This document shows, piece after piece, positions 37,801-40,800 of a DNA stretch of 64,000 bases. This DNA comes from Escherichia coli (lineage in GTDB: Bacteria > Pseudomonadota > Gammaproteobacteria > Enterobacterales > Enterobacteriaceae), in NCBI RefSeq assembly GCF_003334305.1, contig NZ_QOWS01000012.1, one strand, 5' to 3'. The position numbers are program-made. Within the stretch, counting starts at the first letter, position 1. The number at the start of each line of letters is the position of its first letter.

Positions 37801-40800
37801 TACCGCTCTCATGGGCGGCCTCGACGAACTGGCGAGTGATCCAGTTCGTACCAATCACAGCGAAACGTATCATAACGCGTGGATACTCCATAAAGGGATT
37901 CTGTCGTCAATGTAGCACGCCTTTTTCATCTTCGACGTGCGCAGATACGCATTATTCTTTTGCCGGACAGCCATGCTCACTAAACGGCCCAATCATGACC
38001 GATGGCCCGAGATATTTCGGCTGGCGATGGAGGATTTTGGCGTCAATCACGGCGCTGACACGAGCGAGTTTCTCCCGCAGTTGAGTATAAAAACCGTGCT
38101 TCATATTGAGGTCAGGCGCGTTAAAACCGATAGCGTCGATGCCGTACTGTTTTGCCAGCCAGATGGCGCGTTGATTATGAAATTCTTGCGAGATAATGGT
38201 GATATGGTTTTCACCAAAAACCTTTTTGGCACGCACTACCGAATCCAGCGTTGAGAATCCGGCATAGTCGCAGAAGATCACTTTCGCCGGTACGCCTTTA
38301 GCGATCAAAGCCTGCTGCATACCTGAGGCTTCATCGTAATTTTTACGTCCGTTATCGCCACTTACCAGTAGCCATTTCACTTTTCCGGCGTGGTACAACG
38401 CTGCTGCGGTATCAATACGTCGGGTAAAGTAGCGATTACCCGGCCTGGCCCCCAGCAATAAGCCCACGTTACGCGCCGGAACTGCGTTGACATCGCTCCA
38501 GGTCAGCTGCTTGCTGGCGTTGACCATAACGCGATCGGCAATAAAAATGGTCGCTCCTGCTATAAGCAACAACAAACAGCCAATCTTAAGAGTCCGGCGA
38601 GAAAAACAAATACGGAGAAGAAGGCGGGGCTGCATGGTCGTTATCCTTAACGAAAGGGGGGAGGTCGATTTTAGGCGCTAAAGAAAGAAAAGATAACGCC
38701 TGACATCATTTTCAGATTTTGTCCTGCCCAAGCGACAACTGCGTTAGCCACAGCCGGGTGTCGAACTCAAGCTGGTGGTACTGCGGCTCCATATGGCAGC
38801 ACAATTGATAGAACGCTTTGTTATGCTCTTTCTCCTTCAGGTGCGCCAGCTCGTGCACCACGATCATGCGCAAAAACGGTTCCGGCGCGTTGCGAAACAC
38901 GGTAGCGACGCGGATCTCCGCTTTTGCTTTCAGCTTGCCGCCCTGCACACGCGAAACGGCAGTATGTAACCCGAGCGCGTTTTTTAGCACATGGATCTTA
39001 TTGTCATACATCACTTTATTGATCGGCGGGGCATTACGCAGAAACTGATTTTTTAGATCCTGGGTATATTGCCACAGCGCCTTATCGGTGGCGTAGTCGT
39101 GTGTTCCCGGATAGCGTTTTGCCAGCACATCGCCCAGACGCTGTTCGTTAATCAGCGTTCGCACCTGGGAAAGTAGCTGCTCGGGATAACCCTGAAGATA
39201 AGTAAGATTGCTCATAACCGCCCACGAAAAAGAGAAAAAGGGTATACTCACGCACCCTTTTCAGGGGCAACGTCGAAATTTTATCATTCAGGAGGGCCGA
39301 TGAGCCACTTAGACAACGGTTTCCGTTCACTGACACTACAACGTTTTCCGGCGACGGATGACGTTAACCCGCTACAGGCGTGGGAAGCGGCGGATGAATA
39401 TTTGCTGCAACAGTTGGACGACACAGAAATCCGCGGCCCGGTGTTGATCCTGAATGATACCTTTGGTGCGTTAAGTTGTGCGCTGGCGGAACATAAGCCG
39501 TACAGCATTGGCGACTCATACATCAGCGAACTGGCGACGCGCGAGAATTTACGCCTCAACGGGATTGATGAATCGAGCGTGAAGTTTCTCGACAGCACCA
39601 CCGACTACCCGCAACAGCCGGGTGTGGTGCTGATCAAAGTGCCGAAAACACTGGCATTGCTGGAACAACAACTGCGTGCGCTGCGCAAAGTGGTCACGCC
39701 GGATACACGTATTATTGCCGGTGCCAAAGCCCGTGACATTCACACCTCCACGCTGGAACTGTTCGAAAAAGTGCTCGGCCAGACCACCACCACGCTGGCA
39801 TGGAAAAAAGCGCGCCTGATTAATTGCACTTTCAATGAACCGACGCTGGCTGATGCGCCGCAGACCGTTAGCTGGAAGCTGGAAGGTACTGACTGGACTA
39901 TCCACAATCACGCGAATGTTTTTTCCCGCACCGGGCTGGATATTGGCGCGCGCTTCTTTATGCAACATCTGCCAGAAAATCTCGAAGGGGAGATTGTGGA
40001 CTTGGGCTGTGGTAACGGCGTGATTGGCCTGACGCTGCTTGATAAAAACCCGCAGGCGAAAGTGGTGTTTGTTGATGAATCGCCGATGGCGGTCGCTTCC
40101 AGCCGAATGAATGTTGAAACCAACATGCCCGAGGCGTTGGATCGCTGCGAGTTTATGATCAACAACGCGCTCTCCGGCGTGGAGCCTTTCCGCTTTAATG
40201 CTGTGCTCTGCAACCCGCCGTTTCATCAGCAACATGCGCTGACCGATAACGTCGCCTGGGAGATGTTCCACCACGCCCGCCGCTGCCTGAAAATCAACGG
40301 CGAACTGTATATCGTTGCCAACCGCCATCTGGATTACTTCCATAAACTGAAGAAGATTTTCGGCAACTGCACCACTATTGCGACGAATAATAAATTTGTG
40401 GTGCTGAAAGCAGTGAAGCTGGGGCGTCGTCGGTAAGATTGGCAGCAACCTGCCGGATGCGGCGTAAACGCCTTATCCAGCCTACGTTCAGCACGTTACC
40501 CCCAGGCCGGATAAGACGCGGCAAGCGTCGCATCCGGCAATGGCTGCTCATTTCTGGAATCGCGTTTCCATAAAACAAAAAATCCCTGTCACCATCCTCT
40601 ACATTCTCTTGTTTAGAGTTTTTCTACGTTTATGCTACATACGTGAAGTTATGACGCACAAAGAATATGATTTCTTTACCGCCGTTCATCGCACTAAGGG
40701 GAAAAAATGATTGCGCTTTCCAACATCTTGCAGGCAGGAGAACAGCTAACCGCTGTGGCACCTTTTCTGGCGGGTATTCAGAACGAGGAACAATACACCC

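What the first reader, a model, noticed from the sequence alone, without database searches (positions are those of the whole stretch)
40437..40710. higB toxin gene apparently truncated next to a REP cluster, leaving higA as an orphan antitoxin
higA (138 aa) is intact, and its ATG overlaps (ATGA) the stop of an upstream reading frame ending ...CYIREVMTHKEYDFFTAVHRTKGKK, as expected for a translationally coupled higB. But the gap between rlmG and higA is only 270 nt and is largely REP sequence. The longest in-frame ORF is 56 codons with its N-terminus inside the REP, whereas I recall K-12 HigB as 104 aa. The sequence therefore suggests loss or replacement of the higB 5' part.
Basis: partly seen in the sequence, partly recalled or inferred. 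Interest (0 to 1): 0.5.

Follow-up and report, generated by a model that had tools for sequence, protein, structure and literature searches.

The report
Truncated higB toxin, orphan higA antitoxin
This E. coli strain carries a common, already documented natural variant of the higBA toxin-antitoxin locus in which a 325-base deletion removed the promoter and the first 79 codons of the toxin gene, leaving an intact but toxin-less antitoxin gene; it is real but ordinary.

Summary
Compared with K-12, the rlmG-higA interval is 270 nt instead of 594 nt, because of one clean 325-bp deletion. The deletion removed 88 nt upstream of higB, including the only mapped higBA promoter and its palindromic operators, plus higB codons 1-79. 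Only the last 25 codons and the stop overlapping the higA start (ATGA) remain (40633-40710). higA (40707-41123, 138 aa) is intact.

The REP pair did not replace anything. K-12 has the same REPs in the same place.

The variant is common. The same architecture occurs in 1520 of 5426 complete E. coli genomes. 2848 genomes have intact higBA and about 1049 have an empty site. All 13 deletion alleles I sequenced share an identical junction.

It is also documented. RefSeq/PGAP annotates the remnant as a HigB pseudogene, and a 2020 paper reports an orphan higA at fadH-rlmG in CFT073 and NRG857c.

No second copy of the lost higB segment was found outside the 2848 intact-allele genomes. higA was intact in every deletion allele examined, with mostly synonymous variation.

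Whether the orphan antitoxin is still expressed, for example by read-through from rlmG, or still useful is inferred, not shown. Verdict: already known, low interest.

The parts
39300..40436 (+). rlmG (23S rRNA m2G1835 methyltransferase), the upstream neighbour. It is the only evident source of transcription entering higA.
   Evidence: ORF. RefSeq annotation of identical or near-identical loci.
40441..40547 (.). Pair of inverted REP elements (a BIME) that folds into one long hairpin. It is present in K-12 too, so it is not the cause of the truncation.
   Evidence: Inverted repeats I3 and I4. Hairpin in the RNA fold, z = -3.5. Sub-threshold naRNA4/REP hits. Same sequence in K-12 and all other alleles.
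40548..40632 (+). Retained leader sequence, homologous to the K-12 region just upstream of the higBA promoter.
   Evidence: Alignment A1. Per-allele listing.
40632..40633 (.). Deletion junction (..ACGTTTA|TGCTACATACG..). Relative to K-12, 325 bp are missing: 88 nt upstream of higB plus codons 1-79. Microhomology at the junction is 1 nt.
   Evidence: The junction is identical in 13 of 13 deletion alleles.
40633..40710 (+). higB remnant: codons 80-104 (CYIREVMTHKEYDFFTAVHRTKGKK) plus a TGA that overlaps the higA ATG. Pseudogene.
   Evidence: PGAP annotates it as 'HigB ... incomplete; missing N-terminus'. The Pfam HigB_toxin domain spans residues 20-92 of the full protein.
40540..40710 (+). 56-codon ORF created by chance. 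The 325-bp (3n+1) deletion puts an upstream frame in phase with the higB tail. Its ATG lies inside the REP hairpin and has no Shine-Dalgarno sequence. It is probably not a gene.
   Evidence: No family match.
40696..40701 (+). Shine-Dalgarno sequence (AAGGGG) 5 nt upstream of the higA ATG. It lets higA be translated independently of higB.
   Evidence: Read directly from the sequence. Conserved in all alleles.
40707..41123 (+). higA, an intact orphan antitoxin of 138 aa. It has an N-terminal region that I take to be toxin-binding and a C-terminal HTH_3 DNA-binding domain (residues 84-135). It differs from K-12 HigA only at I4L, A5S, D6N and K13Q.
   Evidence: E = 1e-84 to PDB 5IFG chain B. Pfam HTH_3 match.
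41127..41157 (.). Single REP hairpin between the convergent genes higA and fadH. Its GCATCCGGC core is repeated in the upstream REP (40518-40538). The empty-site allele joins exactly there.
   Evidence: Repeats D2 and I7. Alignment with empty-site alleles.
41168..43186 (-). fadH (2,4-dienoyl-CoA reductase), the downstream convergent neighbour.

Best explanation
The locus is a decayed copy of the E. coli higBA (ygjN-ygjM) type II toxin-antitoxin operon.

Shown:
- One 325-bp deletion removed the sigma-70 promoter, both palindromic operators, the ribosome-binding site and codons 1-79 of higB.
- A non-functional 25-codon tail of higB and a complete higA remain.
- The deletion allele is an old, widespread polymorphism of the species (about 28% of complete genomes). 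It coexists with intact higBA (about 52%) and with an empty, REP-only site (about 19%).
- The flanking REP elements are bystanders to this deletion.

Inferred:
- Losing the toxin and its promoter in one step is harmless, whereas losing the antitoxin is not. This is the expected route of decay for a toxin-antitoxin module.
- higA no longer has its own promoter or its own operator. It can only be transcribed by read-through from rlmG across the REP hairpin, which has no U-tract, or from very weak internal signals. It would then be translated from its own Shine-Dalgarno sequence.
- Its uninterrupted ORF and mostly synonymous variation suggest some continuing constraint. It may act as a spare antitoxin or HTH repressor, for example against incoming HigB-family toxins on plasmids.
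- I put roughly even odds on 'still useful' versus 'not yet decayed'.

The confidence given applies to the shown core (deletion-derived higB pseudogene plus orphan higA), not to the inferred expression or function.
For: Deletion and its content:
- Alignment with K-12 and coordinates.
- The K-12 promoter TTGCCA-16-TATCAT with a TG extension, and the 12-bp-stem palindrome, lie at L001 1776-1809, inside the deleted 1753-2077.
- The literature maps a single, HigA-repressed promoter upstream of higB and no start site upstream of higA (PMC2814082).
- No promoter-like site and no plus-strand terminator-like site in window 40300-41250.

The remnant cannot be a toxin:
- Only residues 80-104 remain, while the Pfam HigB_toxin domain spans residues 20-92.

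Frequencies:
- 1520 genomes with the window's architecture.
- 2848 genomes with the deleted segment.
- 4377 genomes with higA.
- Empty sites examined.

No relocated cognate toxin:
- A blastn search at 'distant' sensitivity finds the missing higB part in the same number of genomes, 2848, as the megablast search, mostly once per genome.

higA status:
- Intact in 13 of 13 sequenced deletion alleles. Phylogroup B2 alleles show 5-7 synonymous and 0 non-synonymous differences from K-12.
- Annotated as an intact gene in 21 of 21 sampled deletion genomes.

Age:
- The junction is identical on haplotypes that differ at 6 sites within 36 nt of it.

Prior record:
- PGAP pseudogene annotation.
Against: Nothing contradicts the deletion itself. 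The inferred parts are weak.
- No expression data were examined, so read-through from rlmG is only the default possibility.
- The low non-synonymous to synonymous ratio in higA is shared with intact alleles. O2:H6 (deletion) and FDAARGOS_536 (intact) have identical higA. Most of the constraint may therefore predate the deletion or be imported by recombination.
- The clearly dead 78-nt remnant has also hardly decayed: 1 indel in 13 alleles. An intact ORF is therefore weak evidence of selection.
- Relatives of the window lineage (120899, L3_E36) carry 8 non-synonymous against 7 synonymous changes, which is compatible with relaxed constraint.
- No HigA operator-like site was found elsewhere in the 64-kb window.
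Confidence: 0.9

Rival explanations
1. The orphan higA is a neutral relic. It is silent or irrelevant after losing its promoter, has simply not yet accumulated disabling mutations, and will eventually be lost, as in the empty-site allele.
For: - The promoter and operators are deleted, and no replacement promoter was detected.
- About 1049 genomes have lost the whole cassette.
- The dead higB tail is almost as well preserved as higA.
- There is an excess of non-synonymous changes in the N-terminal region of HigA (presumed toxin-binding, not tested here) in the window lineage: 4 non-synonymous against 2 synonymous in 15 codons.
Against: - The deletion haplotypes have diverged by about 7% around the junction, yet every higA examined keeps a full ORF.
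- B2 deletion alleles have 0 non-synonymous against 5-7 synonymous differences from K-12.
- Large disruptions of higA are rare. 4349 of the 4377 genomes with higA cover at least 80% of the query.
Confidence: 0.4
2. The orphan HigA is kept by selection as an 'anti-addiction' or immunity factor that neutralises HigB-family toxins brought in by plasmids or phages, or as a transcription factor for other genes.
For: - The same family is abundant on enterobacterial plasmids. HigB homologues are on 1159 plasmid records and HigA homologues on 2588, including 96-126 Escherichia plasmids, many of them conjugative.
- The literature proposes this role for orphan antitoxins (PMC7354431).
- The literature also notes an analogous conserved toxin-less antitoxin, ybaQ (bioRxiv 10.1101/2020.05.25.114553).
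- higA is intact in all deletion alleles seen.
Against: - Apart from a few Erwinia, Salmonella and Atlantibacter plasmids (59-71% identical HigB), plasmid homologues are only about 40-50% identical. At that level cross-neutralisation is unproven.
- Only 12 phage records have a HigB homologue, and none is an E. coli phage.
- There is no evident promoter.
- No other operator-like site occurs in the window.
Confidence: 0.25
3. A REP/BIME insertion or REP-mediated rearrangement replaced the 5' part of higB.
For: REPs lie in the gap. REP-to-REP joining does explain the separate empty-site allele.
Against: The same two REPs, at the same distance from rlmG, are present upstream of intact higB in K-12, HS, O157:H7, ST131 and Escherichia sp. 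E1V33. The left breakpoint lies 85 nt beyond the REPs, and neither breakpoint contains REP sequence.
Confidence: 0.02
4. The same 325-bp deletion arose several times independently (a deletion hotspot) rather than once.
For: A two-SNP haplotype at 40621 and 40625, only 8-12 nt from the junction, is found with both the deletion and the intact allele. This violates the four-gamete test over less than 15 nt. Deletion and intact alleles within phylogroup B2 have identical flanks on both sides.
Against: There is no direct repeat or other structure at the breakpoints that would direct a repeated identical deletion. Microhomology is only 1 nt. Recombination heteroduplexes in which nearby mismatches are repaired but the 325-nt loop is not would give the same pattern.
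Confidence: 0.1

Closest known systems
E. coli K-12 higBA (ygjN-ygjM, b3083-b3082) type II toxin-antitoxin operon; structures 5IFG, 6KML, 5YCL
   Same: - Same chromosomal site between rlmG and fadH.
- HigA is 134 of 138 residues identical.
- Same ATGA stop/start overlap, same Shine-Dalgarno sequence and same flanking REPs.

   Different: The promoter, both operators and 79 of the 104 HigB codons are missing. No toxin can be made and there is no autoregulated promoter.
Orphan higA at the fadH-rlmG intergenic region of E. coli NRG857c and CFT073 (Bustamante and Vidal 2020, PMC7232551), and the RefSeq/PGAP 'HigB ... incomplete; missing N-terminus' pseudogene
   Same: Same locus and same state: toxin gone, antitoxin kept. 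The RefSeq pseudogene coordinates match the 78-nt remnant exactly.
   Different: I did not fetch CFT073 or NRG857c themselves. Other B2 strains (ATCC 25922, 536, O2:H6) have the identical junction. The window's lineage differs by four N-terminal HigA substitutions.
ybaQ / higB-1: a conserved antitoxin that persists where its toxin was lost (Rousset et al., bioRxiv 10.1101/2020.05.25.114553)
   Same: A HigA-type HTH antitoxin kept across E. coli lineages that have lost or truncated the upstream HigB-type toxin.
   Different: It is a different locus and a different HigB family. For ybaQ, essentiality and regulation data exist. For this higA, none were examined.
Decay of chromosomal toxin-antitoxin systems, for example ccdO157 in E. 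coli (Mine et al. 2009, seen only as a reference in PMC7167474)
   Same: Within-species polymorphism with toxin inactivation first and the antitoxin retained. This comparison rests on my own knowledge of that paper plus its citation.
   Different: It is a different toxin family, and decay there is mostly by point mutations rather than one shared deletion.

Membership tests
Functional HigBA (YgjN/YgjM-type) type II toxin-antitoxin module | Upstream toxin gene encoding a complete HigB_toxin (PF09907, RelE-like) domain | tested here: not met
   Only residues 80-104 of 104 remain, while the Pfam domain spans residues 20-92 of the K-12 protein. The 56-aa fusion ORF matches no family.
Functional HigBA (YgjN/YgjM-type) type II toxin-antitoxin module | Downstream antitoxin with an N-terminal toxin-binding part and a C-terminal HTH (XRE) DNA-binding domain | tested here: met
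   138 aa. E = 1e-84 to 5IFG chain B over the full length. HTH_3 match at residues 84-135.
Functional HigBA (YgjN/YgjM-type) type II toxin-antitoxin module | Single autoregulated promoter with palindromic HigA operators upstream of higB | tested here: not met
   The K-12 promoter and palindromes (L001 1776-1809) lie inside the deleted segment. There are no promoter-like sites in window 40300-41250 and no operator-like sites in the window.
Functional HigBA (YgjN/YgjM-type) type II toxin-antitoxin module | Toxin stop overlapping the antitoxin start (translational coupling) | tested here: met
   The ATGA at 40707-40710 is retained. With no translated higB it is a relic, and higA has its own Shine-Dalgarno sequence.
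Orphan antitoxin / degraded toxin-antitoxin locus | Intact antitoxin ORF next to a recognisable toxin pseudogene | tested here: met
   PGAP pseudogene annotation.
Orphan antitoxin / degraded toxin-antitoxin locus | No cognate toxin elsewhere in the genome | tested here: inconclusive
   At nucleotide level (down to about 65-70% identity) the missing higB part occurs in 2848 genomes, the same number as in the megablast search. 1520 + 2848 + about 1049 adds up to roughly 5426, so the classes appear disjoint. A protein-level search of the strain's own genome was not possible with these tools.
Orphan antitoxin / degraded toxin-antitoxin locus | Antitoxin still expressed and functional | not testable with these tools
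   This needs RNA or protein data from a deletion-allele strain. The only indirect evidence is the intact ORF and mostly synonymous variation.
REP/BIME elements | Imperfect palindromes of about 35 nt with the GCCGGATG...CATCCGGC core, in an inverted pair, repeated many times per genome | tested here: met
   Inverted repeats I3, I4, I6 and I7. Long hairpin in the fold. The query containing them hits a median of 23 places per genome. Weak naRNA4/REP model hits.

The most novel reading that the evidence does not exclude
The three-state polymorphism (intact higBA, toxin-less higA, empty site) is old and maintained. In this reading the toxin-less allele persists because HigA, transcribed from rlmG without autoregulation, gives constitutive immunity against HigB-family toxins on incoming conjugative plasmids, or has been co-opted as a regulator. 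A side possibility is that the identical deletion recurs by an unknown site-directed mechanism.
Probability: 0.2. Interest if true: 0.4.

Novelty: already known. Interest (0 to 1): 0.12.

Why it matters
The main value is for annotation and for interpreting strain differences. About 28% of complete E. coli genomes, including widely used strains such as ATCC 25922, 536 and O104:H4 isolates, lack HigB but keep HigA, so K-12 results on higBA do not transfer to them.

The locus is a clean natural example of how chromosomal toxin-antitoxin modules decay: the toxin and promoter go first, then the whole cassette is lost between REPs. It could also serve as a test case for whether orphan antitoxins are kept for anti-addiction. 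It does not reveal a new kind of system.

Tried and rejected
- **REP-mediated replacement.** Rejected, because the REP pair is present unchanged upstream of intact higB.
- **Artefact or strain-specific error.** Rejected, because 1520 genomes share the architecture.
- **Relocated or diverged higB copy.** A sensitive blastn search found the missing part in the same number of genomes (2848) as the megablast search.
- **New promoter created at the junction or inside the remnant.** The scan found none. By eye, only weak candidates exist: TTGTTT-16-TATGCT across the junction, and GTGAAG-17-TATGAT at 40666-40671.
- **56-codon ORF as a new fusion protein.** It has no family match and no Shine-Dalgarno sequence, and its start codon is buried in the REP hairpin.
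- **Other HigA operator sites in the window.** None found.
- **NCBIfam equivalog for HigA or HigB.** Only sub-threshold hits, which were uninformative.
- **Catalytic residues of E. coli HigB.** The structural papers (Yang 2016, Jadhav 2020) are not held in the library. I could not say which catalytic residues fall in the remnant, only that three quarters of the fold is gone.
- **Age of the polymorphism from other species.** One degenerate-pattern scan of the GTDB species representatives gave a single hit (Escherichia sp. E1V33, intact higBA), so it is inconclusive.
- **Selection on higA after the deletion.** The sample of 13 deletion and 6 intact alleles gives 13 non-synonymous and 20 synonymous polymorphic sites against 4 and 13 (my tally from the listing). 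This is too few to separate the two classes, and haplotypes are shared between them.
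Full report
**What is in the sequence**

The window is an ordinary E. coli chromosome segment. A 22-kb stretch around the finding is 100% identical to strain A7, and effectively identical to H15 and several other commensal or environmental strains.

The local gene order is rlmG (39300-40436, +), a 270-nt gap, higA (40707-41123, +), then the convergent gene fadH (41168-43186, -). The frame upstream of higA ends ...CYIREVMTHKEYDFFTAVHRTKGKK, and its TGA overlaps the higA ATG. The longest ORF in that frame is 56 codons, starting at 40540.

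**Comparison with K-12**

In K-12, rlmG is followed by a 283-nt intergenic region, then higB (315 nt, 104 aa), then higA. The rlmG-higA distance is 594 nt.

Alignment shows a single clean gap of 325 nt in the window and in ATCC 25922. The missing K-12 segment is L001 1753-2077. It comprises 88 nt upstream of the higB ATG plus exactly 79 codons. What remains of higB is 25 codons plus the stop (40633-40710).

The Pfam HigB_toxin (PF09907) domain covers residues 20-92 of the K-12 protein. The remnant therefore keeps about 13 of 73 domain residues and cannot form the RelE-like fold.

The junction (..ACGTTTA|TGCTACATACG..) has 1 nt of microhomology and no flanking direct repeat. The polarity of the change is clear. 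A promoter plus three quarters of a gene, in frame with a pre-existing tail, cannot plausibly have been inserted, so the short form is the derived one.

**What else was lost**

The best sigma-70-like site in the K-12 interval is TTGCCA-16-TATCAT with a TG extension (L001 1782-1809). It overlaps a perfect 12-bp-stem palindrome (1776-1802) and lies upstream of a second, imperfect palindrome that I read from the sequence. All of these lie inside the deleted segment.

Christensen-Dalsgaard et al. mapped a single start site upstream of higB and none upstream of higA. They also showed that HigA represses this promoter (PMC2814082). The deletion therefore removed the only known promoter of the operon and HigA's own operator.

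In the window, no promoter-like site passes the scan between rlmG and the end of higA, and there is no plus-strand terminator-like site either. higA keeps a good Shine-Dalgarno sequence (AAGGGG, 40696-40701).

**Role of the REPs**

The first 107 nt or so of the gap (40441-40547) are two inverted REPs that fold into one long hairpin without a U-tract. The same pair sits at the same place upstream of intact higB in K-12, HS, O157:H7, ST131 and Escherichia sp. E1V33. The left breakpoint lies 85 nt beyond it.

REPs do matter for a different allele. In about 1049 genomes the whole cassette is absent and rlmG and fadH are 117 nt apart. The joint in those genomes falls in the GCATCCGGC core shared by the REP at 40518-40538 and the REP downstream of higA at 41132-41152.

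**Population picture**

Among 5426 complete E. coli genomes:
- 1520 have the window's architecture.
- 2848 contain the deleted segment, meaning intact higBA.
- 4377 contain higA, which leaves about 1049 empty sites.

Deletion alleles occur in several distinct lineages, including O104:H4 isolates, ATCC 25922, 536, O2:H6 and the window's own lineage. Intact and deleted forms coexist among closely related strains: ST131 is intact, whereas ATCC 25922 and 536 are deleted.

All 13 deletion alleles I read have the identical junction. Between the window and ATCC 25922 there are 6 substitutions within 36 nt of the junction and about 7% divergence over 40543-40751. The deletion is therefore old, or has moved between lineages by recombination.

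**Is higA a true orphan, and is it maintained?**

A blastn search at 'distant' sensitivity with the missing higB coding part finds 2848 genomes, the same number as the megablast search, with one place in nearly every genome. No diverged copy detectable at nucleotide level exists in deletion-allele genomes.

higA is a full 138-codon ORF in 13 of 13 deletion alleles. It is annotated as an intact gene in 21 of 21 sampled deletion genomes. Large disruptions are rare: 4349 of the 4377 genomes with higA cover at least 80% of the query.

B2 deletion alleles differ from K-12 by 5-7 synonymous and 0 non-synonymous changes. The window differs from K-12 only at I4L, A5S, D6N and K13Q plus two synonymous sites, all within codons 1-15. 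Codons 16-138, which include the HTH domain, are identical.

Three points weaken the case for selection:
- higA haplotypes are shared between deletion and intact alleles.
- The dead 78-nt remnant is nearly as well preserved, with one 1-nt loss in 13 alleles.
- Relatives of the window lineage carry 8 non-synonymous against 7 synonymous changes.

I therefore regard continued function as about as likely as not.

**Possible function**

Homologues of both proteins are common on enterobacterial plasmids. HigB homologues are on 1159 records and HigA homologues on 2588, mostly Klebsiella, with 96-126 Escherichia records, many of them conjugative. Apart from a few Erwinia, Salmonella and Atlantibacter plasmids (59-71% identical HigB), they are only about 40-50% identical. 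Only 12 phage records carry a HigB homologue, and none is a coliphage.

This leaves the anti-addiction idea for orphan antitoxins (PMC7354431) possible but untested. No operator-like site exists elsewhere in the 64-kb window.

**What is already known**

RefSeq/PGAP annotates exactly this 78-nt remnant as 'type II toxin-antitoxin system toxin HigB, incomplete; missing N-terminus' in every deletion genome I opened.

[quoted passage not shown] A parallel case, ybaQ/higB-1, has been described with essentiality data.

The finding is therefore correct but already known. The additions here are:
- the exact breakpoints;
- the loss of the promoter and operators;
- the three-allele frequencies;
- the shared junction across diverged haplotypes.

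**Unresolved details**

A two-SNP haplotype 8-12 nt left of the junction (40621 and 40625) occurs with both intact and deleted alleles. This implies either patchy heteroduplex repair or recurrent deletion.

The three substitutions specific to the window lineage in the remnant are all synonymous in the old higB frame (p about 0.007-0.03). One of them turns TACGAT into TATGAT (40666-40671), a -10-like hexamer 35 nt upstream of higA. These are curiosities that I could not test.

Noticed in passing
window 40437-40547 and 41127-41157; loci L004 and L005: There is a third allele of the locus. About 1049 of 5426 genomes have no higBA at all, and rlmG and fadH are separated by 117 nt of REP sequence. 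The joint falls in the GCATCCGGC core shared by the REPs on either side of the cassette, so higBA is bracketed by REPs. It was either lost or gained by REP-REP exchange.
   Followed up: partly
window 40619-40629 (SNPs at 40621 and 40625): A two-SNP haplotype (GTTTTTCTACG versus GTTGTTCAACG) only 8-12 nt from the deletion junction is found with both the deleted and the intact allele. This is a four-gamete violation over less than 15 nt. It implies either patchy heteroduplex repair or recurrence of the identical deletion.
   Followed up: partly
window 40707-40751 (higA codons 1-15): The window's lineage (also H15, 120899 and L3_E36) carries I4L, A5S, D6N and K13Q plus 2 synonymous changes in the first 15 codons of higA. 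Codons 16-138 are identical to K-12. The clustered changes lie in the N-terminal part of the protein, which I take to be toxin-binding (not tested here).
   Followed up: partly
window 40659, 40668, 40692; hexamer 40666-40671: The three lineage-specific substitutions in the dead higB tail are all synonymous in the old higB frame (p about 0.01-0.03). One converts TACGAT to TATGAT, a 5-of-6 match to a -10 hexamer, 35 nt upstream of the higA ATG. The matching -35 is only a 3-of-6 match. This may be a weak new promoter for higA.
   Followed up: no
locus L011 (strain 19SZHZ803Rt), 459-532: This deletion allele has lost one further A from the A-run between the Shine-Dalgarno sequence and the higA ATG (GGGGAAAAAATG to GGGGAAAAATG). 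The remnant no longer ends on the overlapping stop, while higA stays intact.
   Followed up: no
window 43286-43500: A REP cluster lies downstream of fadH. The stretch 43369-43450 matches Rfam naRNA4 (RF02564, nucleoid-associated REP-derived RNA) above the gathering score at 70.4 bits.
   Followed up: no
window 59067-59142 (-): tRNA-Met (CAT anticodon). It is the only tRNA in the window.
   Followed up: no
locus L020 (Escherichia sp. E1V33): Among 100,044 GTDB species representatives, only this Escherichia genome carries the conserved HigA peptide used as the search pattern. It has intact higBA at the same rlmG-fadH site. The E. coli representative and the other Escherichia species representatives gave no hit.
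   Followed up: partly
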